This document shows positions 17,700 to 58,855 of a stretch of 64,000 nucleotides of DNA, piece by piece. Made by a program: the position numbers and the translations under genes. Position 1 is the first letter of the stretch, and each line of letters opens with the position of its first letter. Below the pieces are notes generated by a model. That model had not been told where the DNA came from, ran no database searches, and worked only from the letters and a program-made list of their open reading frames with translations. Source of the DNA: Candidatus Uhrbacteria bacterium GW2011_GWC2_41_11 (GTDB lineage Bacteria; Patescibacteriota; Patescibacteriia; UBA9934; GWF2-40-263); contig LCAH01000001.1 in the NCBI GenBank assembly GCA_000996355.1, positions 85,958 to 149,957 of the forward strand, read 5' to 3'.

Positions 17700-17708
17700 T
17701 CACAACAC

Positions 17709-27965: not shown

Positions 27966-27967
27966 AT

Positions 27968-28849
27968 ATGAATGTATTTGATGAATCTCCTTCGGAAAGA
28001 CCTCTTTTTTTCCAGAAACGTTTTTTAATGATTGCAGGAGCAATGGTTGTTTTTATTCTTCTTATTTTTTTTGTCTGGAATGTCGTCTCACATCGAAATG
28101 AAACAAAACAACAGGAAGGTCTAGTAAAACAAGCAACTGCGGAATTGGAAAAAGCGCTTGCTCTATGTCAGAAGTCAGATGATCCAACCGGTTGTGCTCA
28201 AACAAAGATAGGAGAAACAGCTATACGTATTGGAGCAGCAATCATTTGTACAAAACTCGATGGGGAGGCAAAAGATAATTGTGTTTTGGGTACGGCTCTT
28301 GAACATGGTCAGATAAAGGATTGTGATTTGATGGAAGATAAAGAAGGAAAGACTTCATGTGAGGATGCCGTGTATCAGCGTCTTGCTTACGAAGAAAATC
28401 ATTTAGACTATTGCAATAAAATGGAGAGTTCTCTTGGAAAAGATCGGTGTTTAGATGGAGTGAGTTATCAAATAGCTGTTAAACAGGGATGCGGGGAAAA
28501 AACAGGAATCGAACCATCCGTCTGCGAAGCGATTCAGACGCTTGAAAGAGTTATCGCAAGTCAGGATCCTTCTCAATGTATGAATATATTTCAAGAAAAC
28601 GATCGTTCTGTTTGTTTGGAAGCGATTGGGTCAGGGGATCGTGACCATGATGATTTAACAGGGGATCAGGAAACACGTTTCGGAACAAGTGATACGAATC
28701 CAGATACAGACGGAGATGGTCTCACAGACAAAGATGAAATAATGGTGTGGGGAACGAATCCTCTTGTGTCTGATTCGGATGGAGATCATTTTACAGATGC
28801 CGAGGAAGTTCAAGGAGGATATAATCCGCTTGGCGCAGGACGTTTATAG
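27968..28849 (+). CDS. Membrane-anchored protein with a Cys-rich region and C-terminal thrombospondin type-3-like Ca-binding repeats (paralog 1 of 3)
   Basis: ATG 3 nt after the giant gene's stop. TM helix MIAGAMVVFILLIFFVW; C-terminus DTNPDTDGDGLTDKDEIMVWGTNPLVSDSDGDHFTDAEEVQGGYNPLG. Confidence 0.7.
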   Translation: MNVFDESPSERPLFFQKRFLMIAGAMVVFILLIFFVWNVVSHRNETKQQEGLVKQATAELEKALALCQKSDDPTGCAQTKIGETAIRIGAAIICTKLDGEAKDNCVLGTALEHGQIKDCDLMEDKEGKTSCEDAVYQRLAYEENHLDYCNKMESSLGKDRCLDGVSYQIAVKQGCGEKTGIEPSVCEAIQTLERVIASQDPSQCMNIFQENDRSVCLEAIGSGDRDHDDLTGDQETRFGTSDTNPDTDGDGLTDKDEIMVWGTNPLVSDSDGDHFTDAEEVQGGYNPLGAGRL

Positions 28850-28894
28850 GAATATACTTAAAAGAGTTATTTTTTACGATTGTGTTTTCTTTTT

Positions 28895-29557
28895 ATGTTT
28901 GAGAACGTAAAAAAAGAGCCTGAGGATATTTTTGCTGGAAGCGAAGGGGCTGTCCCGACTCCACCTCCTCCTGTTGCTCTTGCGGGTCAATCTCTTTCTT
29001 CTTCTCGGGAAATTTCTTCGTCCCCCATTTCATCGGAGCAAACCAGAGAAAAACAGACATCTCATTGGTCATGGAAAATGATCGGAATAGTTGGGATGGC
29101 AATTGTCATTGTTGCTGTGGCAGGCGTATTGTCTTCTCGAATTTTAGCAAGTCGTACAAAATCGTCAGATCGCGTTCCTTCTGTGCAAACAGACGAAGAA
29201 AAGATGCAAGAATTAAAAAAAGAGACAGAAAAAATACCAAAAACAACCTCTGAACAAAATAAACCTCAAGAACAAACGTCTGTTATTTTTCCAACTCCAA
29301 TTGTTGTTCCAGAACCAGACGCAGATAAAGATGGTCTTTCTGATGCACAGGAGGCAGAAATTGGAACGAGTCCAACAAATGCAGATACAGATGGTGACGG
29401 GTTGTTTGATCAGGAAGAGGTTGCTGTTTATAAAACCAATCCTCTGAACCCTGATACGGATGGAGATACGTATTTGGATGGAAAGGAAGTATCAAGCGGA
29501 TATAATCCAAATGGTTCTGGAAAATTATTTACTGTTCCAACAGAGGTTGCCCCGTGA
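28895..29557 (+). CDS. Membrane-anchored protein with thrombospondin type-3-like repeats (paralog 2 of 3)
   Basis: ATG at 28895 (the track's TTG at 28880 is the alternative). TM IGIVGMAIVIVAVAGVL; C-terminus PDADKDGLSDAQEAEIGTSPTNADTDGDGLFDQEEVAVYKTNPLNPDTDGDTYLDGKEVSSGYNPNG. Confidence 0.7.
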   Translation: MFENVKKEPEDIFAGSEGAVPTPPPPVALAGQSLSSSREISSSPISSEQTREKQTSHWSWKMIGIVGMAIVIVAVAGVLSSRILASRTKSSDRVPSVQTDEEKMQELKKETEKIPKTTSEQNKPQEQTSVIFPTPIVVPEPDADKDGLSDAQEAEIGTSPTNADTDGDGLFDQEEVAVYKTNPLNPDTDGDTYLDGKEVSSGYNPNGSGKLFTVPTEVAP

Positions 29558-31480: not shown

Positions 31481-32743
31481 ATGTCGGAAGACGTGATTAT
31501 TGGTTTAGATATCGGTTCACACGCGGTTCGGGTGGCTGTCGGTCAACCTGTTCCAAGCGTGGAAGGAAAGACAAACCAAATGCACATTATTGGTGCAATA
31601 GAAGTTCCATCTGAAGGGATGAGCAGAGGAAATGTCTCAAGCATCGAAGATGCAGTTTCTTCAGTTTCAAAAGTATTGGAACAAACGGAACGTCTGACTG
31701 GATTACCGCTAAGTCGTGCTTGGGTGGGAATTTCAGGTACGCATATTATTGCTCAAGAAAGCCGGGGAGTTATTGGAGTGGCAAGAAGTGATGGAGAAAT
31801 TCGTGAAGAAGATGTTGAACGTGCGATTGAGGCAGCGCGCACAGTTGCTATGCCAACTAATCATGAAATTTTGCATGTGATTCCTCGAAGTTTTACCGTT
31901 GACGGTCAGAGAGGTATCAAAGATCCTGTAGGGATGAACGCGATTCGGCTTGAGGTGGATGCCTTGATTATTCAGGGTCTTAGTTCACAAATCAAAAATT
32001 TAACAAAGTGTGTTTATCGGACAGGATTAGATATTGAGGATCTTGTTTTTTCTATTTTAGCTACGGCAGAAGCAGTGGTGACAAATAAACAAAAAGATCT
32101 GGGGGTGTGTGTAATCAATATTGGTGCTTCCACCACCAGTTTGATTATTTTTGAAGAAGGAGACGTTCTTCATACCGTTGTTCTTCCCATTGGGTCTTCC
32201 CATATTACCTCTGATCTCGCCATTGGTCTTCGAACATCTTTGGATGTGGCAGAGCAGGTTAAAATTCGATACGGTCATGCCTTGCCTGAAGAAGTTGATA
32301 AAAAAGAAGAAATCAATTTAGCTGAACTTGGAGCCCAAGATGAAGAATATGTTGGACGACGTTTTATTGCAGATATTATTGAAGCACGTGTGCAGGAAAT
32401 TTTTGAGAAAGTTGATGCAGAACTTTCAAAAGTGGAACGATCCGGCATGCTTCCGGCCGGTGTTGTCCTCACAGGCGGAGGAGCAAAATTGGCTGGGATG
32501 CTTGAAACGGCAAAACGATCCCTTCGACTCCCGACATCTCTTGGAACGCCCATTGGTGTGACTTCAGTTGTGGAACGTATGAATGATCCAGCAATGAGCA
32601 CAGCAATCGGTCTCGTATTGTGGGGATATAATATTGCATCCTCGACTGAGAGTCATCGGTTTAGTGGAGTTTTTTCAAAAGTGAAGAATGTCAAAAAGAT
32701 GGCAAGTGGTCTTGGAAAGTGGTTTAAGTCCTTGCATCCATAA
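31481..32743 (+). CDS. ftsA: Cell division protein FtsA
   Basis: Actin-fold ATPase; N-terminal VIIGLDIGSHAVRVAVG; directly upstream of ftsZ. Confidence 0.92.
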   Translation: MSEDVIIGLDIGSHAVRVAVGQPVPSVEGKTNQMHIIGAIEVPSEGMSRGNVSSIEDAVSSVSKVLEQTERLTGLPLSRAWVGISGTHIIAQESRGVIGVARSDGEIREEDVERAIEAARTVAMPTNHEILHVIPRSFTVDGQRGIKDPVGMNAIRLEVDALIIQGLSSQIKNLTKCVYRTGLDIEDLVFSILATAEAVVTNKQKDLGVCVINIGASTTSLIIFEEGDVLHTVVLPIGSSHITSDLAIGLRTSLDVAEQVKIRYGHALPEEVDKKEEINLAELGAQDEEYVGRRFIADIIEARVQEIFEKVDAELSKVERSGMLPAGVVLTGGGAKLAGMLETAKRSLRLPTSLGTPIGVTSVVERMNDPAMSTAIGLVLWGYNIASSTESHRFSGVFSKVKNVKKMASGLGKWFKSLHP

Positions 32744-32921
32744 AAGTGATTTTTTTACAAGAAGCATATACAGACCCTGGGGATGGTTTGTGTATTTTTT
32801 TATTTGACAACTTTTTTTTTGCGACCTACAGTGTATACGATTTTTGCACAGTTGAGCGTAAAATTGACGAAAAAATGTATTCAAGAGGAATAAAAAAACA
32901 AATGCTTTGAACACTTTTTGT

Positions 32922-34214
32922 ATGGCTGAAGTAAAACCCGATATTGAGACGTTCGCTAAAATTAAAGTTTGTGGAATTGGCGGAGGAGGTGGAGCTGCTA
33001 TTAACCGAATGATTACGGATAAAATTAAAAGTGTTGATTTTATTGCTATCAATACCGACATTCAGGCACTTCACCACAGTCTTGCGTCTGTGAAGATTGC
33101 GATTGGAAAGACGGTGACACGCGGACTTGGAGCAGGAATGAATCCTGATCTTGGTCGACGGGCAGCAGAAGAAAATCAAAATGAAATTCGTAATGCATTG
33201 AATGGGGCAGACATGGTCTTTTTAACTTGCGGACTCGGAGGCGGTACCGGAACAGGTGCAGTGGGTGAAGTTGCCAAACTTGCAAAAGATATTGGTGCTT
33301 TGACAGTTGCGGTTGTGACAAAACCATTTGCGTTTGAAGGTGCACAACGTCGACGCATCGCGGAAGAGGGATTTAATCAATTGATTCAATACGTCGATAC
33401 AGTGATTACAATCCCAAATGACCGTGTTCTTCAAATTATTGATAAAAAAACATCGCTTATTGATGCGTTTAATATTGTTGATGATGTTTTGCGTCAGGGT
33501 GTTCAAGGAATTTCCGAATTGATTACCATTCCTGGTTTGATTAATGTGGATTTTGCAGATGTGAAAGCTATCATGGAAAATGCCGGTTCTGCCCTTATGG
33601 GTATTGGTCGTGCCTCTGGAGAAAATCGTGCAGTGGAAGCCGCAAAACAAGCGATCGCCAGCCCATTGCTTGAACTGTCTGTAGATGGAGCCAAAGGTAT
33701 TTTGTTTACGATTACGGGAGGCCATGATCTTGGTATGCATGAAGTGGCCGAAGCTGCGAAAGTAGTGACTGGCTCTGCAGATGAAGATGCAAAAATTATT
33801 TTTGGTGCGATTATTGATGAAGATTTGAAAGAAGAAGTTCGTATCACGGTTGTGGCAACAGGTTTTGATCATCATGAACGTCGGCGCGGTTCCGGATCTG
33901 TCGAAGTCCCTGTTCAAGGGACGTGGACACCGAGTGCATTTCTTCGTGTGCGTGAAGAAGAAGAACGAAAAGAACGAATACGACCAACTATTTCTTCATC
34001 AACGCCTTTATCTTCTTCTGTATCCTCTGTATCTTCTATCTCGCTTAAACCACGACCTATTTTTGAAGAAGCCCGTCCTATTTCAACATCTCAAGCAGTT
34101 GTTCATTCTTCTCCTCCACCTTCTATGCCAAAACTTGCACCAAAAGTGCAACCACCTCCAACAGAGGAAGAGGAATTAGAGATTCCGGCATTTATTCGAA
34201 AGAAAATGATGTAA
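32922..34214 (+). CDS. ftsZ: Cell division protein FtsZ
   Basis: Tubulin signature GGGTGTGAVGEVAKLAKDIGALTVAVVTKPFAFEG; long Ser/Pro linker; conserved C-terminal peptide EELEIPAFIRKK. Start taken at ATG 32922 (the track's TTG at 32907 is the alternative). Confidence 0.93.
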   Translation: MAEVKPDIETFAKIKVCGIGGGGGAAINRMITDKIKSVDFIAINTDIQALHHSLASVKIAIGKTVTRGLGAGMNPDLGRRAAEENQNEIRNALNGADMVFLTCGLGGGTGTGAVGEVAKLAKDIGALTVAVVTKPFAFEGAQRRRIAEEGFNQLIQYVDTVITIPNDRVLQIIDKKTSLIDAFNIVDDVLRQGVQGISELITIPGLINVDFADVKAIMENAGSALMGIGRASGENRAVEAAKQAIASPLLELSVDGAKGILFTITGGHDLGMHEVAEAAKVVTGSADEDAKIIFGAIIDEDLKEEVRITVVATGFDHHERRRGSGSVEVPVQGTWTPSAFLRVREEEERKERIRPTISSSTPLSSSVSSVSSISLKPRPIFEEARPISTSQAVVHSSPPPSMPKLAPKVQPPPTEEEELEIPAFIRKKMM

Positions 34215-40392: not shown

Positions 40393-41541
40393 CTACAGAC
40401 TTTTGAGCAATGAAGATTCAAAGGTCCGAACAACCTTTTGGTCTTTTGCGAAACGCTCCTCTGCTAATTGGATGAGTTTTTGAATGAGATCGACATTCGA
40501 TACGCCAGAAGCTTTCCAATTATGGTGGTAGAGGCTGCCGGGGAGTGTATTTACCTCATTCACGAATACCTGATTCGTCTTCGAGTCGATCAAAAAGTCA
40601 ACGCGAGCAATACCGGTACAGCCCAAAACTTTGTACACCGCTTTACCAAGCTTCAAGACTTCCTTGGAGAGATCTGGAGGGATGTTTGCAGGTATCTCGC
40701 TATAGTTATTATTCACGCCCGAATCAGATCCTTTCTTGCCACCCGACAGATATTTATCTTCAAAGTTGAAAAACTCAGTCTTGTTGAGTGGGCGTTCGAT
40801 GGAAGCTGGCGTCAATATATCGTTACCCATGATTGGAAGCGTGACTTCAATAAGATTCTCAACGCTTTCTTCGACGAGCACTTTATTATCATAGTGAGAT
40901 GCGACTTCGAGCGCTTGCTCTAATTCTGACCGATCCTTAACTTTTGTGATCGCAATAGAGGAGCCGAGATGTACGGGCTTCACGAAGAGAGGCCATTGTA
41001 GCACGCTGGCACGCTCTATAAAGCCCTTTCTATCCTTCTCCCAGACATTTTGTGTGAGCCACTCGTAACGCACAACTGGTAAACCAGCCGCAGACACCAC
41101 TTGCTTTGTTAAAACTTTGTCCATCGCAACTGCAGAAGCGGCCATGTCGCAGCCTACGAAAGGTACATTCGCCATGCGAAGAATACCCATCAAGCTTCCA
41201 TCTTCTCCATATGTGCCGTGCATAGCGGGAAAGACCAGATCAATGTCGATCTTTTTTGAAACCATTCCAGAGAGGACAATAGAAAATTTCTCCCCAATAG
41301 AAAGTTGGAGTGGCTTCAGCTTTGTGAACTTGTCTTGAATATCGCCCTTAAAATAGTCCATGTAGTTCATCTGCTTTTCTGAATACCAGAGCCCTTCTTT
41401 TGTAATGTAGATTGGAATTACCTCGTACTCATCTAATGTGAGAAGTGTGTCGATAATTGGAGTATGAGCGGTGATGATTGAAACATCATGCTCCGCGCTT
41501 TTTCCGCCAAAAATGACGGCAATTGTTTTTTTGTTCTTCAT
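40393..41541 (-). CDS. ddl: D-alanine--D-alanine ligase
   Basis: IAVIFGGKSAEHDVSI; VFPAMHGTYGEDGSLMGIL; ATP-grasp region ARVDFLID...VNEVNTLPG. Start set at the internal ATG (MKNKKTIAVIFGG), just downstream of the MurF-like stop. Confidence 0.9.
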   Translation of the reverse strand: MKNKKTIAVIFGGKSAEHDVSIITAHTPIIDTLLTLDEYEVIPIYITKEGLWYSEKQMNYMDYFKGDIQDKFTKLKPLQLSIGEKFSIVLSGMVSKKIDIDLVFPAMHGTYGEDGSLMGILRMANVPFVGCDMAASAVAMDKVLTKQVVSAAGLPVVRYEWLTQNVWEKDRKGFIERASVLQWPLFVKPVHLGSSIAITKVKDRSELEQALEVASHYDNKVLVEESVENLIEVTLPIMGNDILTPASIERPLNKTEFFNFEDKYLSGGKKGSDSGVNNNYSEIPANIPPDLSKEVLKLGKAVYKVLGCTGIARVDFLIDSKTNQVFVNEVNTLPGSLYHHNWKASGVSNVDLIQKLIQLAEERFAKDQKVVRTFESSLLKSL

Positions 41542-41551
41542 AGTTTTGTTA

Positions 41552-42979
41552 TTAGATATATTGATCTGGCCAGTCGTTCTGCAAGAGAACAATGTCGCCT
41601 TTTACTGTAATGCGAGGTAAGGCGGCGAACGATTTCAAGGCCTCGTCAAACCAGATAACCTCCCCTTCATATTTTTCTTCATACAGTCCTTCCTCGATGA
41701 ACGGAGTCACGGAATTTTTAACAAGTACAACTTTTTCGATTTGAGCTCTGGCTAACTCTCTCCCAATTTCACGGTGCACTTCTTCCTTCTTGGAGCCCAT
41801 TTCAACTAAGCCCGGTGTTACATAGAAGCGTCGTCCATTTAGTGATGCGAGAAATGCAATAACCGCCTTAACGCCATCTGGATTACCGTTATAGCTGTCA
41901 TCAAGCGTTGTTACGCCATTTCTATCTACGCTTGGAGCAAGACGATGATCAAAAGGCTTTGTCTTCAACGTTCCTGCACGGATATGAGAAGGGGTGGAAC
42001 CCAATCGCCTTGCAAGATCTGCGGAAAGGGCAAGAGGTCCGATCTGGTGCAGGCCCAACAGCGAGGATCGTATTTCCATCGGAACGTTGTTCTTCTCCAT
42101 AACAAACGACGTCCCAGAAAGATCTGAATGTGCGTTCTCCATGCGCCAACTGTTAACGCCTTCACGGCTATACATGATGTGGTTCGGGCGTGCATGGTCG
42201 CGAGCCAATATACTCTCACCGTTTACGTATAAAGGTTTATCGCCGAGGAAATCAGCAAGTTCATAAATTGTCTGTACCGTTTTTTCAATAGTCTTAAATT
42301 TTTGGAGATGTGCTTCGTTGATGCCGGTAATGATTCCAATATCCGGGTTGATCAATTTACATAACCTTTTTACATCGCCGGGATAGTATTCTCCCAACTC
42401 AAAGATAAGCACCTCCTCGTTGCCTCGTAACGTTTTGATAAATTTACTGATGCCAAGTGGCGTATTATAGCTATGTGGTGGGGCAGCGACTTCTTTATCT
42501 TCCGATAGGACCGTTTTCAAAATTTCGCGCATGGACGTCTTTCCGTAACTCCCGGCGATAGCAATCTTTACTCCATGATGTTCTGCGAGCTTTTTCTTTG
42601 CAAAATAAATGATGACGAATTCGATTGGTTTCTGGACAAGCAATTGAATTATTGTGAGAGGTGCAAGGATGAGGTAACTAAGTAAGATGGGGGACAAAAT
42701 AATAATCGCGGCGCCCAGTACATGCCTAAAGGGTAGATTGGTGGCGATTATGAGCCAAAGACCAGATGAAGCAATGCTAATCAATAACATCAGGCCGACA
42801 AATACAAGTAAGACCGTTTTTGCGGACCATTTTATCTGTTTACGCTTTTCAACAAAGCGAAAATCTTTGACATCATGAAGCCATGCAAGATAATCTTGCG
42901 CCTTGTATTCGCTTGCTTGGAGCATATAGACCAAAGAACGAATATATCGAGGATGGAATCTTGAAAAAAATAGCCTCAT
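41552..42979 (-). CDS. Mur ligase family protein, MurF-like (UDP-MurNAc-tripeptide--D-Ala-D-Ala ligase-like); an N-terminal ~120-aa multi-TM segment stands in place of the usual N-domain
   Basis: Mur ligase P-loop IAIAGSYGKTSMREIL; C-terminal TPGLVEMGSKKEEVHREIGRELA resembling MurF; the first ~120 aa are hydrophobic helices; 4-nt overlap with the hydrolase gene. Confidence 0.75.
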   Translation of the reverse strand: MRLFFSRFHPRYIRSLVYMLQASEYKAQDYLAWLHDVKDFRFVEKRKQIKWSAKTVLLVFVGLMLLISIASSGLWLIIATNLPFRHVLGAAIIILSPILLSYLILAPLTIIQLLVQKPIEFVIIYFAKKKLAEHHGVKIAIAGSYGKTSMREILKTVLSEDKEVAAPPHSYNTPLGISKFIKTLRGNEEVLIFELGEYYPGDVKRLCKLINPDIGIITGINEAHLQKFKTIEKTVQTIYELADFLGDKPLYVNGESILARDHARPNHIMYSREGVNSWRMENAHSDLSGTSFVMEKNNVPMEIRSSLLGLHQIGPLALSADLARRLGSTPSHIRAGTLKTKPFDHRLAPSVDRNGVTTLDDSYNGNPDGVKAVIAFLASLNGRRFYVTPGLVEMGSKKEEVHREIGRELARAQIEKVVLVKNSVTPFIEEGLYEEKYEGEVIWFDEALKSFAALPRITVKGDIVLLQNDWPDQYI

Positions 42980-43725
42980 ACAAAAGCGTTTATTAGTTTA
43001 GCTACACGCTTTGCATCAGATACAAATACAAAATGATCAGCACCCCCTATTATTTTGAGTTGGGAGTTTTGAATGCAGTTATTTAGCGTTCTCGCGTCAG
43101 CAAGTGGCGTCTGTTGATCCTGATCACCCCAGATGAGAAGCGTTGGGAGTGTGAGCTTGCTCGCATCATCCCTTAAATCTTCGCTCACGACTTTTACAAA
43201 CGTATCTTTCAAGTTACCTGCGTTGCGGTAGTCTTCACTACCTACTGTTCGTGTAGCGTAGTTTTTTAATCGTTTTCGTATCGATGCCACAGGGATGATG
43301 GAGATAGCCATCTTGCCGATCTTGATCACCAAAGAAATGCAATGATGAAAGAATGTTTTTTGCGATACGCCTGCTGCGCCAATGAGTACAAGTTTCTTCG
43401 GGAGTAAGATCGCTGTTGCTATTGCCTTTATAGCAACTCGACCTCCAAAAGAATGAGCAATAATAGTATCAATTTCAGAAATGTTGAGTTTTTTAAGAAA
43501 TGACGCGAGGAACTGAGCGTAGTCGACAACTCCCCACGGATTGGGTGGAGTTTCACTTTTTCCAAACCCCGGAAACGAAAGTGAGACGAATCTCTTATTT
43601 TTCAGCTCACGTACGAGTGGATCAAAAGAAAACGCATTACCACCCCAGCCATGGAGCAATAATACGACCGGTCCAGAACCGGTATCTTTGTATTCAGTAT
43701 CGATGTCGTCAACAATGATCTGCAT
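42976..43725 (-). CDS. Alpha/beta-fold hydrolase
   Basis: HGWGGN oxyanion region; nucleophile elbow AHSFGG; C-terminal GGADHFV region (catalytic Asp/His). Confidence 0.8.
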   Translation of the reverse strand: MQIIVDDIDTEYKDTGSGPVVLLLHGWGGNAFSFDPLVRELKNKRFVSLSFPGFGKSETPPNPWGVVDYAQFLASFLKKLNISEIDTIIAHSFGGRVAIKAIATAILLPKKLVLIGAAGVSQKTFFHHCISLVIKIGKMAISIIPVASIRKRLKNYATRTVGSEDYRNAGNLKDTFVKVVSEDLRDDASKLTLPTLLIWGDQDQQTPLADARTLNNCIQNSQLKIIGGADHFVFVSDAKRVAKLINAFV

Positions 43726-43765: not shown

Positions 43766-44545
43766 TTATGAATTTTCTCTGAACCGTTGCCAGATTTGTT
43801 CGAACATCCAGCGCTGTGCGCTTGCAAATTCTTTCGATCGCACGATAAAGCCAATGATCCCTGTCTTTTCGTTAAATGAGAGCATGGCAATTTTGTCGCC
43901 AAAAATATATGTCTCATTTTCAAAGGGTGCTTTCCCCTTAACGATTCGCGTTTCACGCCTGCTCGTTTTATCAGCTTTTTGGATGTTTCGGGCTTCTGGT
44001 GAATCTGTCGCAATCAGACGAAGGGTGATGTTTTGCGCGACGCGACGTTGAATAAAGGCGTCGTGATATTCTCGAGAGAACACACGATCTTCTTCTTCGA
44101 AGTTCGACATGAGAAGAAGCTCAAAGTCAGAACCGGAAAGAATATCTTCCGTAATCTGATGTAACCCTTCAATGCCGGTGAATGTCTGAAGCACAGGACG
44201 GTCGTTACGACTCCCATATTGAGCAAGGAGTTCCGGCATGGATTCTTGGATAGATTCCACCTGCCGACGCATTCGTCGGATCTCTGTTCGCAACCTAGCA
44301 ATGATTGCTTTTGGTTCACGCGTCCAAATGATCTTGCGATTGCCCATATTCTCCTCGTCCATGAGACCAAGCTCCTGAAGTTGCTGATAGGCGGCATAAG
44401 CAGACGAACGATCCATCTTTGTTGCCTTTGCAATTTGTCCTACAGAAGAACGTCCAAGTTTATAGCTGGCAAGGAAAAAAGTGATCGCGTTTGGACTTAC
44501 ACGAAGATTTTCCAAAGAAGATTTAATACTTGTGAGCTCGGCCAT
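43766..44545 (-). CDS. TrmB-family transcriptional regulator
   Basis: N-terminal wHTH (LENLRVSPNAITFFLASYKLGRSSVGQIAKATKMDRSSAYAAYQQLQELGLM). Same length and architecture as the ORF at 58082-58855. Confidence 0.7.
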   Translation of the reverse strand: MAELTSIKSSLENLRVSPNAITFFLASYKLGRSSVGQIAKATKMDRSSAYAAYQQLQELGLMDEENMGNRKIIWTREPKAIIARLRTEIRRMRRQVESIQESMPELLAQYGSRNDRPVLQTFTGIEGLHQITEDILSGSDFELLLMSNFEEEDRVFSREYHDAFIQRRVAQNITLRLIATDSPEARNIQKADKTSRRETRIVKGKAPFENETYIFGDKIAMLSFNEKTGIIGFIVRSKEFASAQRWMFEQIWQRFRENS

Positions 44546-45100: not shown

Positions 45101-45640
45101 ATGTGTTCGATTCAACGATTTTTCCTCGGTTTAAGCCTGATGGGTGCGTTGTGTGGGTTGCTCGTCAATGCCACGCCCACTTTCGCCTGTTCTTGTGTTC
45201 GAGCGACGTCGACTGAACAGTTTAATGATGCGACGACGGTTTTTGTTGGAAGAGTAAAAAGTATTTCCGAAGATAGTAGTTCTCGATCCGTCGACTTTAA
45301 TGTGAGTGAATCGCAGAAAGGTTCGGTCGCTGAAAACGTAACCGTGACGACCGGCTTGGGCGGTGGTGATTGCGGTTTCGATTTTGAAGTAGGTCATGAG
45401 TACATGGTCTACACCCGTGGACAAGAACAGCTTAGCACGAATATCTGCGTCGGAACCTCTTTCATTGCAAGTACTCAGGACGGCAATAGAGAAGATGACG
45501 CTGCGAGCAATCCCGAAGTATCGACTATAGAGTTGGACACCGAAGATAATTCCGTCGGTTCTTTCGTTATTATCGTGCTCATTTGCTTTTGCTTAGGTGC
45601 ATTGGTGGTGTATCTAATAGGACGTAAGAAGACCAGATAG
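45101..45640 (+). CDS. Membrane-anchored extracellular TIMP/NTR-like (metalloprotease-inhibitor-like) domain protein
   Basis: Signal peptide ending ...TFA, so the mature N-terminus would begin CSC as in TIMPs. CSCVRATSTEQFNDATTVFVGRVK aligns with TIMP CSCSP..QAFCNADVVIRAK. GDCGFDFEVGHEYMVYT...STNICVGTSF aligns with TIMP SVCG...KEYLIAG...ITLCDF. A D/S-rich linker and a C-terminal TM follow (FVIIVLICFCLGALVVYLIG-RKKTR). Confidence 0.7.
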   Translation: MCSIQRFFLGLSLMGALCGLLVNATPTFACSCVRATSTEQFNDATTVFVGRVKSISEDSSSRSVDFNVSESQKGSVAENVTVTTGLGGGDCGFDFEVGHEYMVYTRGQEQLSTNICVGTSFIASTQDGNREDDAASNPEVSTIELDTEDNSVGSFVIIVLICFCLGALVVYLIGRKKTR

Positions 45641-51715: not shown

Positions 51716-51815
51716 GCAAAACTCCTTTTGTAAAAGAACACCCCTTCCTTTTTCTCAGAAAAAAAAGAACAGAATTGCCTGTTTTATAGGAAAAAATTGA
51801 TTTTGTCAAGAAAGG

Positions 51816-51845
51816 TTGATTTACAAAGGAACCCGAAGGTATACT
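51816..51845 (+). promoter_or_regulatory. Sigma70-like promoter; its -10 ends about 8 nt before the GT2 ATG, so the mRNA may be leaderless or have a very short leader
   Basis: TTGATT, 18-nt spacer, TATACT. Confidence 0.35.
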
Positions 51846-51853
51846 GGTTTTCT

Positions 51854-52903
51854 ATGATTCCAACGGTTTCTATCAATATCGTCGCCTGGAACAGCATGGA
51901 TCGGCTTCCGACTTTACTTGAATCCATCTTTTCTCAAACGTTTCAAAATTTTGTTGTTCGAATTGTTGATAATGGTTCCACGGATCATGTGGGTGAGTTT
52001 TTGCGCGAAAAATATCCGCAAGTGATGCTTATTCGAAATACGCGAAATCTTGGATTTTCTTGTGCTCACAATCAAGGAATTCGATACGCGATTGATAAAT
52101 GGACAGATCAATCGCTTGATGCGTGTTTTGTTCTTGTGGTGAATCCAGATGTCGTGTTTACCCCGACATTTTTAGAAGACCTTTTGCGAAATACAGAAAA
52201 TAATCCGAAGGTTGCGAGTTTTGGAGGAAAATTATTGCGTGCGTTTCCGAATCCGGAAAGTGATGATGCGTGGCGAGATATGATTCGATCTTCCATGATT
52301 GATTCAACCGGACTTCGCCCAAATCGTCGCCGGTGTGTTGCAGAACGCGGAGCAGGAGAGGAAGACACAGGACAATACGATAAAGAGACTGATATTTTTG
52401 GAGTGAGCGGAGCGCTTGTTTTATATCGAGCCTCTGCTCTTGAGGATATACGATTTGAAGAAGATGAATATTTTGATCATGATTTTTTTGCGTATCAGGA
52501 AGATATAGATTTGGCTTGGCGTTTACGCAGTTGCGGATGGTCTGCGCGATTTGTGCCTCGAGCGCTTGCATATCATGAACGAGCCATGTCTGGAAATGAA
52601 CGAGTAACTCTGTGGCAGCTTATGAAAAATCGACAGCGTAAATCGCGGTTGCGCAGTTACTATTCAACACGCAATCATTGGGTCATGCTTTTCAAAAATA
52701 TGTCTTGGTCAGATTGGGTGTTGTCTCTCCCTTGGGTGATTCCGATGGAAGCGGCTCGTTTTGTCTATGTTTGTGTGTTTGAATCTATGAATATTGGTGC
52801 ATTTGCTGAAGTTGTTTTATGGATGCCGCACATGTGGCACAAACGTAGACAGATTATGAAAAAAAGAAATGAATCAAAGACCTTGCGTGCCTGGTTTCAA
52901 TAA
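51854..52903 (+). CDS. Family 2 glycosyltransferase
   Basis: VSINIVAWNS...VVRIVDNGSTD; DxD-type region. ATG 51854 preferred over the track's TTG 51797, which reads through the promoter-like element. Confidence 0.85.
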   Translation: MIPTVSINIVAWNSMDRLPTLLESIFSQTFQNFVVRIVDNGSTDHVGEFLREKYPQVMLIRNTRNLGFSCAHNQGIRYAIDKWTDQSLDACFVLVVNPDVVFTPTFLEDLLRNTENNPKVASFGGKLLRAFPNPESDDAWRDMIRSSMIDSTGLRPNRRRCVAERGAGEEDTGQYDKETDIFGVSGALVLYRASALEDIRFEEDEYFDHDFFAYQEDIDLAWRLRSCGWSARFVPRALAYHERAMSGNERVTLWQLMKNRQRKSRLRSYYSTRNHWVMLFKNMSWSDWVLSLPWVIPMEAARFVYVCVFESMNIGAFAEVVLWMPHMWHKRRQIMKKRNESKTLRAWFQ

Positions 52904-53746
52904 GTGGATATGGATCTTTCTATTTTGATTGTTCACTATAATACCCCGCGTCTTTTGCGACAGACATTACGGAGTATTCGTCGGGCTGCTCCGCGTTTGT
53001 TTTACGAAATTTTCGTCGTTGACAACAATCCTTCCGAACGTCTTCCTGCAAGTTTGCACGCAGAATTTCCTGAAGTGCATATTTTGAAAAGCGAAAAAAA
53101 TATTGGATTTGCTTCAGGAATGAATCAGGGAATGAAAGCGGCTCATGGTCGACATTTTTTAATTTTTAATCCGGACATGATTGTTTTACCCGGATCTCTT
53201 GAACATCTCACAGCTTTTTTGGATGAACATCCATCGGTCGGAATGGTTGGTCCAAAATTATTGCATCCGGATGGCACCCTTCAATTTTCCTGTTATCGAT
53301 TCATGAAACCAATAACGATTGTATACCGACGTCTCCCACTCATTGATTGTCTTTCATGTGTTTCACGGGAATTGAAACGATATCTTATGTCTGATTGGGA
53401 TCATACATCTGTTGCGTCTGTTGATTATCTATTGGGTGCATGTCTTCTTGTGCGACGGGAAGCTGTGGAGGAAGTTGGCGGGTTTGATCCGTCTTATTTT
53501 ATGTATTTTGAGGATCAAGATTGGTGCCGGCGGTTTTGGCAGGCAGGATGGGAGGTTGTTTATCATCCAGAAATCAGCATGATCCATTATCATCGTCGGG
53601 AAACCGCAGAAGGAGGATTTTTTCGCCAACTTTTTCGTCCGCTTACACACATTCAATTGCGAAGCGCGTGGCGTTATTTTCGTAAATTTCGTGGACAGCC
53701 TTATTCCTATGAAAGAAAAAAAATTCGTTCTGAGAGTGGTGAATAG
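52904..53746 (+). CDS. Family 2 glycosyltransferase (second copy)
   Basis: LSILIVHYNTPRLL...FVVDNNPSE; GFASGMNQG; starts right after the previous stop. Confidence 0.85.
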   Translation: MDMDLSILIVHYNTPRLLRQTLRSIRRAAPRLFYEIFVVDNNPSERLPASLHAEFPEVHILKSEKNIGFASGMNQGMKAAHGRHFLIFNPDMIVLPGSLEHLTAFLDEHPSVGMVGPKLLHPDGTLQFSCYRFMKPITIVYRRLPLIDCLSCVSRELKRYLMSDWDHTSVASVDYLLGACLLVRREAVEEVGGFDPSYFMYFEDQDWCRRFWQAGWEVVYHPEISMIHYHRRETAEGGFFRQLFRPLTHIQLRSAWRYFRKFRGQPYSYERKKIRSESGE

Positions 53747-53754
53747 CAGAAATT

Positions 53755-55797
53755 TTGTGTACCATAAAGGACATGACACACAGCGTAAATTTTCTTGAAC
53801 ATCTTGAACAACCTTCTCAACAACGAACACATAAACATCGTCGTGTTTGGTTGATTGTTTTTTCTCTTCTTGGCAGCATTCTTTTTTTGGCTGTGCTTTT
53901 TTTTGTTCTTGTTTGTGGACAAGTTTTGGTTGCAGCTTTTGATGGAAAAGATCGGTTGGTAGCAGTACAAGAAGCTGTAGTTCATCAGGATTTTGAACAA
54001 GCACAACATGAACTTGTTGTTGCTCAAGAAGATTTTGATCAGGCTGAGCGCGGTTGGCAGCGTCTGCGTTGGCTTCGTTCTTTTGGGTGGGTCGGAGTTC
54101 AATGGGAGGCTGTACAGACAATGATTCATGCTGGAAATCATCTTGTGACAGCTGCAGAAGATGTCGTGAATTTTGGAGCAGAACTCATGCGATTGTCTGG
54201 TGTGACAGCGGAACAACTTTCTTCCATCCGTCCAGACATAGGGGCTGAATCAACGTACGATCAGCTTTCTGCAAAAACAAAACGTGCACTTTTACAGCGT
54301 TTAGCAGGAGGGGCTCCCGATCTTTCTGTGACAGCTGCAAAAATAGATGTTGCCCTCGCAGAACTTGATTTGCTTTTTACAAAAGATCTTGCTACGCCTC
54401 TTTCAACAGCTTTGAAAATAATGAAAGATCGCGTAGAACCTCTTGCGAATGCTGTAAAAACAGCTTCTGTATTTGCGTCTCTTATTCCTGCATACGCAGG
54501 TTTAGATCATCCGGTGAATCTGCTTGTGTTATTTGAAAATAATAATGAGTTGCGTCCAGGAGGAGGATTTATTGGAACATTCGGAGTACTCCAAATCCAA
54601 GATGGAGAAATTCGTTCGTTTGTCACAAAAGATGTTTATGCACTTGATGATCCCGCAGATCCTCAATATGAAGCAATGCCTCCGGAACCATTGCGTCGAT
54701 ACAATGCGTCGGGAGATTGGTTTTTCCGCGACAGTAATTGGTCTCCTGATTTTTCTGTTTCGGCTAGACAAGCGCTTGCAATTTTTGAACAAGAAAATCG
54801 TGTGTTACCTGAAGAGATGCGTGTTCAGTTTGGTTTCCCAGAGACATTTGATGGGGTGATTGCATTTACGCCAACGTTTGCAGCCGAGTTATTGCGATTA
54901 TTGGGACCGGTTGAAATGGGAGGACAAATTTTTACCTCAGAAAATATTGCAGAGACGTTAGAGTATCAGGTGCAGTTTGGATTTTCCAAAGCAGGTATTC
55001 CTGAACCACAGCGCAAAGATATTTTAGTCGGTCTGATTGAAAAAGTGCGTTATCGATTCATGAATCTTCCAGCCAAAGAATGGTCAAAATTTTTAGATGT
55101 TTTTTCTGAAGCGATTCAGAAAAAACACATGGCTTTTTTTCACACAGATTCAGAGATACAAGAACGTCTGATACATGCAGGGTGGGCCGGTAACATCACT
55201 CCATCAGACGGAGACCATTTGATGGTTGTGGATGCAAATCTTGCAAGTCTGAAATCAGATCCTGCGGTTCAGCGGACTATTTTTTATAGTATACGTCCAT
55301 CAAGTGATGGAGAATATGTCGCACAAGTAACGATCCGATATGAGCACAAAGGAAATTTTGATTGGAAGACAACGCGCTATCGAACCTATACACGTGTGTA
55401 TACTCCGCTTGGAAGTCGTCTTCTTCGCGCATCCGGTATGTTTATTGATGATGCACTGAAAGATCCAAACCGAAATCCAGGGTCTGTAGATATGGGAGAA
55501 GAACTTGGATTTCAAGTGTTCGGAGCATTTACATCTGTAGAACCAGGACAAACACAAGAGTTGCATTTCGAATATTTACTCCCTTCTTCGATAAAGGAGA
55601 TAATTCAAAAAAATCAGTATCATTTGAAAGTCTATAAACAGATAGGAGCTTTATCTCATGCATTGACGCTTGATCTTGATTTTGATAAAACGCTCAAACA
55701 CGCCTTGCCTGAAGAAGAAATGAAAGAATGGAATGATGATGTCTATCGATTGAACACGAAATTAGATCAAGATCGGACGTTTGAGGTGAATTTTTGA
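53755..55797 (+). CDS. Membrane-anchored extracytoplasmic protein (~680 aa) in the glycosylation cluster; possibly DUF4012-like
   Basis: N-terminal TM (LIVFSLLGSILFLAVLFFVLV); motif NNNELRPGGGFIGTFGVLQIQDGEI. The DUF4012 assignment is from memory and is weak. Confidence 0.6.
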   Translation: MCTIKDMTHSVNFLEHLEQPSQQRTHKHRRVWLIVFSLLGSILFLAVLFFVLVCGQVLVAAFDGKDRLVAVQEAVVHQDFEQAQHELVVAQEDFDQAERGWQRLRWLRSFGWVGVQWEAVQTMIHAGNHLVTAAEDVVNFGAELMRLSGVTAEQLSSIRPDIGAESTYDQLSAKTKRALLQRLAGGAPDLSVTAAKIDVALAELDLLFTKDLATPLSTALKIMKDRVEPLANAVKTASVFASLIPAYAGLDHPVNLLVLFENNNELRPGGGFIGTFGVLQIQDGEIRSFVTKDVYALDDPADPQYEAMPPEPLRRYNASGDWFFRDSNWSPDFSVSARQALAIFEQENRVLPEEMRVQFGFPETFDGVIAFTPTFAAELLRLLGPVEMGGQIFTSENIAETLEYQVQFGFSKAGIPEPQRKDILVGLIEKVRYRFMNLPAKEWSKFLDVFSEAIQKKHMAFFHTDSEIQERLIHAGWAGNITPSDGDHLMVVDANLASLKSDPAVQRTIFYSIRPSSDGEYVAQVTIRYEHKGNFDWKTTRYRTYTRVYTPLGSRLLRASGMFIDDALKDPNRNPGSVDMGEELGFQVFGAFTSVEPGQTQELHFEYLLPSSIKEIIQKNQYHLKVYKQIGALSHALTLDLDFDKTLKHALPEEEMKEWNDDVYRLNTKLDQDRTFEVNF

Positions 55798-55815
55798 AGA
55801 AAGGGAAGTATTTCT

Positions 55816-56820: not shown

Positions 56821-56826
56821 AGAATT

Positions 56827-58081: not shown

Positions 58082-58855
58082 ATGGAAGAACTCATTCGCG
58101 AACTCATTCATCTTGGCCTCTCTGAAAAAGAGGGTGCTGTTTATCTTGCCTCCCTTGAATTAGGGCCAGCTGTTGTCCAAGACATTGCCAAAAAAGCGAA
58201 TGTTAATCGTGCGACTACCTACGTCATGATTGAAACTTTGGCTGCTCGTGGACTCATGAGCACGTTTGTTAAAGGAAAGAAACGTTTTTTTGCTGCAGAA
58301 TCTCCAGAACGTTTATTGACGATTGTTCGTCTTCAGCGCCGAGAATTGGAAGAAAAAGAAAAAGAAATTAGTTCTGTTTTGCCAAAACTTCACGCAGTTT
58401 ATAATATTGAAGGGGTAAAACCCCAGATTCGTTATTTGGAAGGTGCAGAAGGAATTGTTTCGGTTATGGAAGTGTTTGAAGCCATGGAAGGGGAGTTTGT
58501 GGAAATGGTTTCCATTGACGACATCGAAAATATTCGCGAACTCATTCATCATCGCGAACGTCATTTGGAAGAACTTCAAAAACGCAATGTTTCTTATCGT
58601 CTGATTGCCGTCATGAAGAATCCTGATTTTTCTAAAGTGCCAAAAATTACCGGTGGAGAAGTGCGTCTGGTTCCTGCAGAAAAATTCCCTATTCATGGAG
58701 ATTTTATTGTTCGCAACAATACGGTTTTCCTTTACTCGTTTACAAGCGCCATGCTTGGTGTTGTTCTTACAAGCAAAGAGATCGCAGACACCTTGCGTCA
58801 GATGTTTAATCTTGCCTGGGAAGGATCTGCAAATTATCCGACAGAAAAACGGTAA
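58082..58855 (+). CDS. TrmB-family transcriptional regulator (paralog of 43766-44545)
   Basis: wHTH LSEKEGAVYLASLELGPAVVQDIAKKANVNRATTYVMIETLAARGLM; 257 aa against 259 aa for the other copy. Confidence 0.7.
   Translation: MEELIRELIHLGLSEKEGAVYLASLELGPAVVQDIAKKANVNRATTYVMIETLAARGLMSTFVKGKKRFFAAESPERLLTIVRLQRRELEEKEKEISSVLPKLHAVYNIEGVKPQIRYLEGAEGIVSVMEVFEAMEGEFVEMVSIDDIENIRELIHHRERHLEELQKRNVSYRLIAVMKNPDFSKVPKITGGEVRLVPAEKFPIHGDFIVRNNTVFLYSFTSAMLGVVLTSKEIADTLRQMFNLAWEGSANYPTEKR

What the first reader, a model, noticed from the sequence alone, without database searches (positions are those of the whole stretch)
41552..42979. MurF-like ligase whose N-domain is replaced by about 120 aa of transmembrane helices
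The protein has a Mur-ligase P-loop (GSYGKTS) and a MurF-like C-terminal motif (TPGLVEMG). Canonical MurF begins with a soluble UDP-binding N-domain. Here the first ~120 residues are hydrophobic helices instead (LLVFVGLMLLISIASSGLWLIIATNLPF..., AIIILSPILLSYLILAPLTIIQLL). A membrane-tethered MurF-type enzyme co-transcribed with ddl is unusual. One explanation is that it acts on a membrane-proximal substrate. Another is that its first domain is simply an uncharacterised membrane variant.
Basis: partly seen in the sequence, partly recalled or inferred. Interest (0 to 1): 0.55.

Follow-up and report, generated by a model that had tools for sequence, protein, structure and literature searches.

The report
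Membrane-anchored MurF-type ligase of Patescibacteria
This gene encodes a cell-wall ligase of the MurF type whose usual nucleotide-binding head is replaced by a conserved short motif plus two membrane helices; the design recurs across the ultra-small Patescibacteria, always fused in an operon with a hydrolase and the D-Ala-D-Ala ligase, and seems never to have been described.

Summary
ORF 41552-42979(-) encodes a 475-aa Mur ligase whose closest relatives by sequence and by fold are MurF enzymes. The match starts only at residue ~115-137, so the UDP-binding N-domain is absent. It is replaced by a basic, highly conserved cytosolic motif (aa 1-54, "SRYxPRYxRSLVYMLQASEY...") and a two-helix membrane hairpin (aa ~55-114).

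This is not an oddity of one genome. At least 562 species-representative genomes carry it, and the 80 best matches are all Patescibacteria MAGs or MAGs with doubtful labels. In every locus with enough sequence the order is α/β-hydrolase, then this ligase, then ddl. The hydrolase stop and the ligase start overlap by 4 nt (ATGA) in 50 of 77 loci.

The enzyme departs from MurF at catalytic and substrate elements. Ile replaces the carbamylated Lys. Its C-terminus is QNDWPDQY instead of KGSR. It scores below the TIGR01143 cut-off.

Other Patescibacteria also carry a second, soluble MurF-type ligase that lacks the N-domain too. It lies after ftsI or next to ddl, and in three loci it sits beside the triad.

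Most likely this is a membrane-tethered D-Ala-D-Ala-adding enzyme that works with the hydrolase. Its acceptor could be UDP-linked or lipid-linked; that is unresolved. I rate it a new variant of a known kind.

The parts
42976..43725 (-). α/β-hydrolase gene (249 aa) that is translationally coupled to the ligase. It has a Ser92-Asp203-His231 triad (GHSFGG motif).
   Evidence: Pfam Abhydrolase_1/6. The triad is invariant in 73 orthologues. The gene is present upstream of the ligase in every one of the 80 related loci with enough sequence. Its stop overlaps the ligase start by 4 nt in 50 of 77 loci. The closest solved structures are generic esterases and arylesterases.
41552..42979 (-). Membrane-anchored MurF-type ligase (475 aa plus stop codon), called TM-MurF in this report.
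42818..42979 (-). aa 1-54: conserved basic cytosolic motif of four short helices. Y18, Q21, E24, Y25, W33, F40, E44, R46 and K54 are invariant.
   Evidence: Alignments A1 and A2. Conservation is 0.73, with K+R 11.8 against D+E 4.5. No Pfam family matches. In 1.84 billion representative proteins the motif is found only at the N-terminus of such ligases.
42743..42817 (-). aa 55-79: transmembrane helix 1.
   Evidence: Family mean Kyte-Doolittle hydrophobicity is 2.23, with almost no charged residues. AF2 places a helix at 53-79.
42638..42742 (-). aa 80-114: a short outer loop (~8 residues) and transmembrane helix 2. P97 and Y102 are nearly invariant.
   Evidence: The AF2 helices at 85-133 run without a break into the linker that leads to the P-loop strand.
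41990..42637 (-). aa 115-330: linker helix and central ATP-binding domain. The P-loop GSYGKTS lies at 42533-42553. Other elements are ELGE 194-197, NEAH 221-224, and Ile238 at the carbamyl-Lys position.
   Evidence: Pfam Mur_ligase_M. Alignments to the MurF enzymes of T. maritima and E. coli. Residue counts.
41555..41989 (-). aa 331-475: C-terminal domain, with HR 345-346, DDSYNGNP 360-367, TPGLVEMG 388-395 and the invariant tail QNDWPDQY 467-474.
   Evidence: Pfam Mur_ligase_C..
40393..41541 (-). D-alanine--D-alanine ligase gene (382 aa counted from the ATG at 41541).
   Evidence: NCBIfam NF002528 scores 324 bits, above its cut-off of 262. The gene call gives 382 aa and a 10-nt gap. The gene lies downstream of the ligase in related loci. 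The ω-loop reads 'EDKYLSG', with Tyr as in D-Ala-D-Ala-forming enzymes (read from the sequence; the link between that residue and specificity is my own knowledge).
43766..44545 (-). TrmB-like HTH protein (259 aa) 40 nt upstream on the same strand. It may be a local regulator and is not part of the conserved triad.
   Evidence: Weak Pfam TrmB and IclR HTH hits. Conserved at this position only in the closest relative, L005.

Best explanation
The gene encodes a real, lineage-wide membrane-anchored ligase of the MurF type.

Shown:
- A MurF-like ATP-binding domain and C-terminal domain.
- No UDP-binding N-domain.
- In its place, a conserved basic 54-residue motif and a two-helix hairpin.
- A fixed operon of α/β-hydrolase, ligase and ddl.

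Inferred:
- The hairpin sits N-in/C-in, so both the N-terminal motif and the catalytic domains are cytoplasmic. The long helix that continues from TM2 holds them at the inner face of the membrane.
- The enzyme uses ATP to activate the terminal carboxylate of a muramyl-tripeptide precursor. It then joins to it the D-Ala-D-Ala made by the Ddl encoded just downstream. That is MurF chemistry, carried out at the membrane next to MraY and the lipid carrier.
- The conserved N-terminal motif takes over the substrate-head or partner-docking role of the lost N-domain.
- The translationally coupled Ser-Asp-His hydrolase works with the ligase as one unit.
- In lineages like this Uhrbacteria genome, where I saw no other MurF-type gene, it is probably the enzyme that completes the pentapeptide.

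Whether the acceptor is UDP-MurNAc-tripeptide or a lipid-linked or nucleotide-free muropeptide is not decided by my data.
For: Family assignment. The best family is TIGR01143 murF (1.5e-55), far ahead of murD, murC and murE. All top PDB sequence hits are MurF, led by 3zl8 at 7e-29. The top 10 Foldseek hits of a confident AF2 model are MurF (pLDDT 90.4, pTM 0.85).

Catalytic elements. P-loop, ELGE, H224, HR345-346 and DDSYNGNP are invariant in 73 homologues.

Topology. K+R averages 11.8 in the N-flank, 0.5 in the loop and 5.0 in the C-flank.

The N-terminal motif is as conserved as the catalytic core (0.73 against 0.76-0.79), whereas the TM helices are conserved only in composition.

Operon. 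ddl follows the ligase, and the hydrolase precedes it, in every one of 80 species-representative loci with enough sequence. The ATGA overlap occurs in 50 of 77 loci. Pairwise identities of the three genes co-vary (r 0.61-0.67).

No other Mur ligase was found in the 64-kb window or within ±10 kb of its ends.

A published table for ten MAGs of Patescibacterium gen. nov., whose reference genome is labelled ABY1, counts one K01929 murF each, beside murC, murD and murE (PMC11809585). That Uhrbacteria belong to the same class is my own knowledge.

P0200 carries the same N-module on a different MurF body, next to ddl, at the position of the Saccharibacteria ddl-murF locus. This shows that the module goes with MurF-type enzymes.
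Against: Three related loci carry a second MurF-type gene right beside the triad (L081, L048, L013). The two paralogues are therefore not simply redundant.

The second family keeps the canonical elements. Lys is present in 95 of 120 members, and K-G/A-S-R/Q/H and GDMxELG are kept. This family has instead Ile or Val in 73 of 73 members, QNDW and TPGLVEMG. Its TIGR01143 score of 188.9 is below the cut-off of 288.6 and below the paralogue's 227-251.

The role of the hydrolase is unexplained. No experiment exists. I could not inspect model coordinates to see where the N-terminal motif packs.
Confidence: 0.5

Rival explanations
1. It is a neofunctionalised two-component enzyme. The soluble paralogue without an N-domain is the true MurF. 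This ligase and its coupled α/β-hydrolase form a MurT/GatD-like pair that modifies or repairs a membrane-bound precursor. One possible cycle: the hydrolase trims a lipid-linked or salvaged stem peptide, and the ligase re-extends it with D-Ala-D-Ala.
For: Both paralogues occur in one cluster with a single ddl in L081 and L048. Catalytic and substrate elements are altered in this family only. The overlap with a hydrolase that has an invariant triad is strict. There is a membrane hairpin and no UDP-binding domain. From my own knowledge, MurT likewise lacks the N-domain, acts on lipid II and pairs with an enzyme encoded by an adjacent gene. MurT structures do appear among the fold matches, though weakly (TM-score 0.37-0.48).
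Against: How often the two paralogues co-occur across genomes is unknown. No second MurF-type gene was seen near this locus, and published counts give one murF per MAG in ten Patescibacterium MAGs, whose reference genome is labelled ABY1. The soluble paralogue lacks the N-domain too, so that loss does not mark a lipid substrate. No GatD-like partner is present.
Confidence: 0.3
2. It is an ordinary MurF with an inert tether. It uses UDP-MurNAc-tripeptide exactly as canonical MurF does, and the hairpin merely localises it. The hydrolase is an unrelated neighbour.
For: The sequence and fold are MurF-like and the gene is linked to ddl. Public records name it MurF.
Against: An inert tether would not need a 54-residue cytosolic motif as conserved as the active site. 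The carbamyl-Lys position and the C-terminal motif are changed. The ATGA coupling to the hydrolase holds in 50 of 77 species. The score is below the curated MurF cut-off.
Confidence: 0.12
3. It is not a peptidoglycan enzyme. It would be a Mur-family amide ligase that builds another product at the membrane, for example a polymer in the manner of PgsB/CapB or cyanophycin synthetase.
For: It has an N-terminal membrane anchor, as PgsB has (own knowledge). It departs from the MurF catalytic signature.
Against: No PgsB/CapB or cyanophycin-synthetase model appears among its NCBIfam hits, whereas the MurF models dominate. There are no PgsC/PgsA-like neighbours. Linkage to ddl is universal.
Confidence: 0.06
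4. It is an annotation artefact. The true start would lie downstream of the hydrophobic stretch, or the hydrophobicity would be a misjudgement.
For: Some gene callers start homologues at Met19, for example P0006 at 457 aa.
Against: Even Met19 lies upstream of both helices. Conservation starts at residue ~5 in 73 sequences. The next in-frame ATG after the hairpin, M150, lies inside the P-loop region.
Confidence: 0.01

Closest known systems
Canonical MurF (UDP-MurNAc-tripeptide--D-Ala-D-Ala ligase; TIGR01143, EC 6.3.2.10; e.g. PDB 1gg4, 3zl8, 4cvm)
   Same: It shares the central ATP-binding domain (P-loop, ELGE, His) and the C-terminal domain (HR, DDxYNxNP). These are the best sequence and fold matches. 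It is linked to ddl, as in the Firmicutes ddl-murF operon (that arrangement is my own knowledge).
   Different: There is no UDP-binding N-domain. In its place are a novel 54-aa motif and a TM hairpin. Ile replaces the carbamylated Lys, and an invariant Glu sits in NEAH. The C-terminus is QNDWPDQY instead of KGSRxxxxE, and GxMxELG is TPGLVEMG. It scores below the curated cut-off. It is always preceded by an α/β-hydrolase gene.
Soluble MurF-type ligase of Patescibacteria without an N-domain (called 'type-2' here; 410-450 aa; P0271-P0485)
   Same: It is the closest paralogue: the type-2 HMM scores this family at 113-172 bits. It also lacks the N-domain. It is sometimes in the same gene cluster and also next to ddl (L171, L048).
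   Different: It has no membrane hairpin and no YMLQ motif; its P-loop starts at residue ~32. It keeps Lys, KGS(R/Q/H) and GDMxELG. It carries an extra ~25-residue insertion with a partly hydrophobic stretch after the P-loop region. It lies after mraZ-rsmH-ftsL-ftsI (L085, L086).
MurT/GatD (lipid II isoglutaminyl synthase)
   Same: It is a Mur-ligase-family enzyme without the UDP-binding N-domain. It acts on a membrane-bound precursor and pairs with a second enzyme encoded by an adjacent gene (own knowledge). The fold is related.
   Different: MurT has a DUF1727-type C-domain and a glutaminase partner, and no TM helices. The match is weak (Foldseek TM-score 0.37-0.48). Neither MurT nor GatD was found here.
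PgsB/CapB (poly-γ-glutamate synthetase subunit)
   Same: It is a Mur-ligase-family ATPase with an N-terminal membrane anchor (own knowledge).
   Different: No sequence-family match was found. PgsB has a single N-terminal helix, a different C-terminal part and PgsC/PgsA partners, and it has no ddl linkage.
Natural Mur chimeras (MurE-MurF, MurC-Ddl, MurD-FtsW, MraY-MurG; PMC10214165)
   Same: They are precedents for physically coupling steps of the Mur pathway, including fusion of a Mur ligase to a membrane protein (MurD-FtsW).
   Different: That survey lists no membrane-anchored MurF. Here the added module is not another pathway enzyme but a small novel motif plus a hairpin.

Membership tests
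Mur ligase superfamily (Pfam Mur_ligase_M + Mur_ligase_C) | Both Pfam domains score above their gathering thresholds | tested here: met
   PF08245 scores 85.2 bits (cut-off 24) and PF02875 scores 40.1 bits (cut-off 28.4).
MurF (TIGR01143 / EC 6.3.2.10) | Score reaches the curated family cut-off | tested here: not met
   188.9 bits against a cut-off of 288.6; the equivalog models score 85-138 bits against cut-offs of 544-1023.
MurF (TIGR01143 / EC 6.3.2.10) | [quoted passage not shown] | tested here: not met
   The profile match starts at position 61 of 418, which is query residue 123. PDB and Foldseek alignments cover only ~355-365 columns. Residues 1-122 are a novel motif plus two TM helices.
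MurF (TIGR01143 / EC 6.3.2.10) | ATP-binding signature: P-loop GxxGKT/S, Mg-binding Glu, His, DDxYNxNP | tested here: met
   GSYGKTS, ELGE, H224 and DDSYNGNP are invariant in 73 members.
MurF (TIGR01143 / EC 6.3.2.10) | Carbamylated lysine (E. coli K202). That it is functionally required is my own knowledge (Dementin et al. 2001). | tested here: not met
   The aligned position is Ile in 69 and Val in 4 of 73 members. The soluble paralogue keeps Lys in 95 of 120.
MurF (TIGR01143 / EC 6.3.2.10) | C-terminal KGSR-type motif and GxMxELG | tested here: not met
   The family has an invariant QNDW and TPGLVEMG instead. The profile match ends at position 403 of 418. The canonical E. coli tail is quoted from memory; the type-2 family shows the motif in 120 of 120 members.
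MurF (TIGR01143 / EC 6.3.2.10) | Catalyses addition of D-Ala-D-Ala to UDP-MurNAc-tripeptide | not testable with these tools
   Only indirect evidence is available: universal linkage to a bona fide ddl.
MurT (lipid II isoglutaminyl synthase subunit) | MurT family model match and a GatD glutaminase partner | tested here: not met
   No MurT model appears among the NCBIfam hits of this protein. The fold match is weak. The neighbour is an α/β-hydrolase, not a GATase.
PgsB/CapB and cyanophycin synthetase | Family model match | tested here: not met
   Neither is among the 13 NCBIfam families hit at E<=0.01.
D-alanine--D-alanine ligase (the downstream gene) | Score reaches the curated cut-off | tested here: met
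   NF002528 scores 324.3 bits (cut-off 262) and TIGR01205 scores 274.9 bits (cut-off 245.65).

The most novel reading that the evidence does not exclude
The ligase and its overlapping α/β-hydrolase form a two-component enzyme that acts on a lipid-linked or salvaged, nucleotide-free muropeptide rather than on UDP-MurNAc-tripeptide. Patescibacteria would then complete or repair the D-Ala-D-Ala end of the stem peptide after the precursor has reached the membrane. That would be a step outside the textbook order of peptidoglycan synthesis. It would fit with both MurF-type families of this phylum having discarded the UDP-binding domain.
Probability: 0.2. Interest if true: 0.85.

Novelty: new variant of a known kind. 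Interest (0 to 1): 0.6.

Why it matters
MurF performs the last cytoplasmic step of peptidoglycan precursor synthesis and is an antibiotic target. Its three-domain, soluble, UDP-binding design is treated as universal.

This work points to a large bacterial lineage that carries a membrane-inserted MurF-type enzyme. That enzyme has a new conserved N-terminal module, an altered catalytic signature and an obligate hydrolase partner. The lineage's other MurF-type ligase lacks the UDP-binding domain too.

If the inference holds, the end of the Mur pathway in these ultra-small, host-dependent bacteria is organised differently. It may run at the membrane, or on salvaged or lipid-bound intermediates. 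That bears on how they build walls with minimal metabolism. It also supplies a defined three-gene module to test in the few genetically tractable Saccharibacteria.

It also matters for annotation. Both families are currently labelled simply 'MurF' or 'Mur ligase family protein'.

Tried and rejected
Literature. Four full-text searches found no description of a membrane-anchored MurF or of two MurF paralogues in Patescibacteria; the last was swamped by the muscle protein MuRF. The lipocone paper, the LBCA/dcw paper and the Saccharibacteria genetics preprint held nothing relevant.

The N-terminal module. A Pfam scan of the N-terminal 136 aa at E<=10 gave only noise.

Second murF in this genome.
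- phmmer and HMM scans of the window found none.
- The 10 kb beyond each window end held none.
- I scanned metagenomes with the SEDS protein found just left of the window. The scan returned 80 related loci (about 1 Mb) with no Mur ligase at all, and it missed this organism's own contig. This was a poor use of that scan.
- I tried to match the longest-contig lengths between the hit lists of the two families, to prove they share a contig. No matches appeared, because only the top 120 hits are listed.

Promoter and terminator scans were at chance level.

Rejected interpretations.
- CapB/PgsB, cyanophycin synthetase, MurT and Mpl membership: no family match.
- A downstream start codon.
- Horizontal spread of a cassette as the reason for the high identity. 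Identities of the three genes co-vary, and the type-2 family is only modestly less conserved (46% against 53% mean pairwise identity). I built no proper tree.
Full report
**1. What is there**

The ORF 41552..42979 on the minus strand encodes 475 aa from an ATG. Pfam places Mur_ligase_M at residues 141-313 and Mur_ligase_C at 351-466, and nothing before residue 141.

Among NCBIfam models, TIGR01143 (murF) is by far the best, at 1.5e-55 and 188.9 bits. However, it aligns only profile positions 61-403 to residues 123-466, and it stays below the curated cut-off of 288.6. The murD, murC and murE models score 20-42 bits.

All strong PDB sequence matches are MurF enzymes: T. maritima 3zl8 at 7e-29, E. 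coli 1gg4 and P. aeruginosa 4cvk. Their alignments start at query residues 115-139.

An AlphaFold2 model built from 73 homologues is confident (mean pLDDT 90.4, pTM 0.85). Its ten best Foldseek matches in the PDB are MurF structures, aligned over ~355-369 columns. That span corresponds to the central and C-terminal domains only.

The protein is therefore of the MurF type, and the canonical N-domain is absent.

**2. The N-terminus**

Kyte-Doolittle windows identify two strongly hydrophobic segments, at about 55-80 and 87-115. The model has long helices at 53-79 and 85-133. The second helix runs straight into the strand that carries the P-loop.

The first 54 residues are not hydrophobic. They are basic and form four short helices.

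Conservation across 73 homologues (major-residue fraction):

| Region | Conservation |
|---|---|
| aa 1-54 stretch | 0.73 |
| TM1 | 0.40 |
| Loop | 0.35 |
| TM2 | 0.53 |
| Catalytic domains | 0.76-0.79 |

Y18, Q21, E24, Y25, W33, F40, E44, R46 and K54 are invariant.

Charge distribution is K+R 11.8 before TM1, 0.5 in the ~8-residue loop and 5.0 after TM2. This fits an N-in/C-in hairpin with everything else in the cytoplasm, which an ATP-dependent ligase requires (inference).

The upstream start is genuine. Conservation begins at about residue 5, and the ATG overlaps the stop of the upstream gene.

The module matches no Pfam family. A profile of residues 1-124 was searched against 1.84 billion representative proteins. 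It found 195 clusters, always at the very N-terminus of a protein. Hits were either ~458-501 aa long or shorter sequences, which are probably fragments. Of the 46 full-length hits, 45 have a ligase body of this family with the C-terminal Q-N-D-(W/L)-x-D-x-Y tail.

**3. It is a family with a fixed operon**

The window protein is identical to records from Candidatus Uhrbacteria MAGs (KKR84893.1 and others). More than 120 database clusters match at 57-91% identity over the full length. They are named from Uhr-, Sung-, Levy-, Kaiser- and Liptonbacteria and from Nanosyncoccaceae.

The best 80 are all Patescibacteria MAGs or MAGs with doubtful labels.

In all 80 loci, wherever the contig allows, the order is α/β-hydrolase, ligase, ddl. 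The hydrolase stop and the ligase start overlap by 4 nt (ATGA) in 50 of 77 loci, and they overlap in some form in 59 of 77. The distance to ddl varies from -26 to about 2,500 nt.

The hydrolase keeps an invariant Ser92-Asp203-His231 triad. It resembles only generic esterases.

The downstream gene is a bona fide Ddl: 324 bits against a cut-off of 262.

Mean pairwise identities among species representatives are 53% for the ligase, 62% for Ddl and 48% for the hydrolase. The three values co-vary (r 0.61-0.67), as expected for co-inherited genes.

**4. Departures from MurF beyond the N-domain**

I aligned this family with the E. coli and T. maritima MurF segments printed. The differences are:

- The position of the lysine that is carbamylated in MurD, MurE and MurF is Ile in 69 and Val in 4 of 73 members. 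This is E. coli K202. That it is functionally required is my own knowledge of Dementin et al. 2001.
- The family has an invariant Glu two residues before the catalytic-site His (NEAH).
- GxMxELG is replaced by TPGLVEMG.
- The protein ends in an invariant QNDWPDQY, where MurF has K-G-S-R.

The P-loop, ELGE, H224, H345-R346 and DDSYNGNP are all invariant. An active ATP-dependent ligase is therefore expected (inference).

**5. A second MurF-type family in the same phylum**

Three of the 80 loci carry another Mur ligase next to the triad:

- L081: type-2, hydrolase, TM-ligase, ddl.
- L048: hydrolase, TM-ligase, ddl, type-2.
- L013: ftsI, a truncated type-2, hydrolase, TM-ligase, ddl.

These proteins score higher on TIGR01143 than the window protein (227, 251 and 160 bits). 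They also lack the N-domain: their P-loop begins at a median of residue 32.

The family is large. In one search 7,962 of 8,000 candidates scored E<=1e-10, and in another 3,338 scored E<=1e-20. HMMs separate it cleanly from the TM family.

It keeps the canonical elements. The Lys is present in 95 of 120 members, and in 113 of 120 within ±4 columns. K-G/A-S-R/Q/H is kept in all 120, and GDMxELG is kept.

Its genomic context varies:

- mraZ-rsmH-ftsL-ftsI-type2 in L085 and L086.
- ddl-type2 with a 4-nt overlap in L171, a 644-kb Saccharibacteria contig.
- Alone in L170.

One protein, P0200 (545 aa, on an 851-kb contig), joins the YMLQ-plus-hairpin module to a type-2-like body. It scores 295 bits on the type-2 HMM against 93 on the TM-family HMM. 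It lies beside a ddl in the same LeuRS-NusB-NUDIX-RNase III neighbourhood as the Saccharibacteria type-2 gene. The N-module is therefore a separable unit that travels with MurF-type ligases.

**6. Does this genome have the second paralogue?**

I could not settle this. No other Mur ligase lies in the 64-kb window or within 10 kb of either end.

A published KEGG table for ten MAGs of Patescibacterium gen. nov., whose reference genome is labelled ABY1, lists one K01929 (murF) per MAG, beside one each of murA-E (PMC11809585, Table S6). That Uhrbacteria belong to the same class is my own knowledge. IMG labels both families as this same enzyme, so this hints at a single MurF-type gene in that class. 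It is indirect evidence only.

**7. Interpretation**

The best-supported reading is a membrane-tethered D-Ala-D-Ala-adding enzyme. It has MurF-type ATP and C-terminal domains, and it is universally linked to Ddl. The cytosolic motif and hairpin replace the UDP-binding domain and hold the active site at the membrane. A hydrolase partner is made in fixed proportion through translational coupling.

Shown:
- The architecture, conservation, synteny and coupling.
- The altered residues.
- The existence of the paralogue.

Inferred:
- The topology.
- The use of D-Ala-D-Ala.
- The identity of the acceptor.
- Physical partnership with the hydrolase.

The main rival is that the soluble paralogue is the real MurF. 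On that view this ligase plus the hydrolase would be a MurT/GatD-like pair that acts on a lipid-linked or salvaged muropeptide. Co-occurrence of both paralogues around a single ddl, the changed catalytic elements and the strict coupling all favour that view. The lack of a demonstrated second gene here and the single-murF counts in the ten Patescibacterium MAGs argue against it as a general rule.

A plain MurF with an inert anchor does not explain the conserved aa 1-54 motif, the residue changes or the hydrolase. A product unrelated to peptidoglycan is unlikely, given the ddl linkage and the absence of any PgsB or cyanophycin-synthetase signal.

**8. Comparison and novelty**

A survey of natural Mur chimeras lists MurE-MurF, MurC-Ddl, MurC-MurB, MurG-MurC, MurD-FtsW and MraY-MurG. 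It describes the N-domain as the part that binds the UDP-MurNAc-peptide precursor, and it mentions no membrane-anchored MurF (PMC10214165). My other searches found no description either.

The proteins are present in public databases under the names 'MurF', 'Mur ligase family protein' or 'hypothetical protein'. I therefore classify this as a new variant of a known kind. It is a MurF-derived family that fails several defining MurF features, has a novel N-terminal module and sits in a conserved three-gene unit.

I rate the interest as moderate to high. The finding is not an artefact. A cell-wall specialist would be surprised by it. It also yields a directly testable question: which acceptor does the enzyme use, and what does the hydrolase do?

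Noticed in passing
L085:10001-11239, L086:10001-11233, L171:10001-11287, L048:4589-5842, L081:1419-2705: The second, soluble MurF-type family of Patescibacteria ('type-2', 410-450 aa) also lacks the whole UDP-binding N-domain; its P-loop starts at residue ~32. It also carries a ~25-residue insertion after the P-loop region with a partly hydrophobic stretch (e.g. 'FFWPKIIIKSLGHLIF'). So no MurF-type ligase seen in this phylum has the canonical N-domain.
   Followed up: partly
L087:8001-9638 (protein P0200): A single chimera joins the YMLQ motif and two TM helices to a type-2-like MurF body. It lies next to a short-type ddl, at the position of the Saccharibacteria ddl-murF locus, on an 851-kb contig.
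   Followed up: partly
window 40393-41592 (-): The ORF finder gives ddl a TTG start at 41592 that would overlap the ligase by 41 nt. The conserved start is the ATG at 41541 (382 aa), 10 nt after the ligase stop.
   Followed up: yes
window 15822-29557 (+): A giant 3,418-aa ORF (17709-27965) has an N-terminal T4SS-pilin-like segment and Big_5 and TIG Ig-like domains. It is preceded by a 625-aa protein of similar make-up and followed by two proteins with bacterial TSP3 repeats. This is probably a surface or adhesion gene block.
   Followed up: partly
window 43766-44545 (-) and 58082-58855 (+): Two ~258-aa TrmB-like HTH proteins. The first lies directly upstream of the hydrolase-ligase-ddl operon. 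It is conserved there only in the closest relative (L005).
   Followed up: partly
window 9319-10806 (-), 31481-34214 (+), 51797-57972 (+): Other envelope and division genes in the window: a LytR-CpsA-Psr protein; ftsA and ftsZ; and two GT2 glycosyltransferases, a DUF4012 protein, mreB and a GT4 glycosyltransferase. A SEDS (FtsW/RodA) gene lies ~10 kb left of the window start (L088:74-1204). No MurA-E, MraY or MurG was recognised in the window.
   Followed up: partly
window 45101-45640 (+): A 179-aa ORF with no family match has a hydrophobic N-terminus with Cys residues and a hydrophobic C-terminal segment followed by RKKTR. It may be a small anchored surface protein.
   Followed up: no
loci L005, L008, L017, L018, L021, L027, L034, L040, L067: Several MAG records that carry the triad are titled Gammaproteobacteria, Bdellovibrionales, Pseudomonadales or Bacteroidetes. 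Their loci look like the other Patescibacteria loci, so the record taxonomy is probably wrong.
   Followed up: no
L070:6807-7781: One locus has a second, weaker ddl-like ORF (E 2e-28) about 2 kb upstream of the triad, in addition to the triad's own ddl.
   Followed up: no
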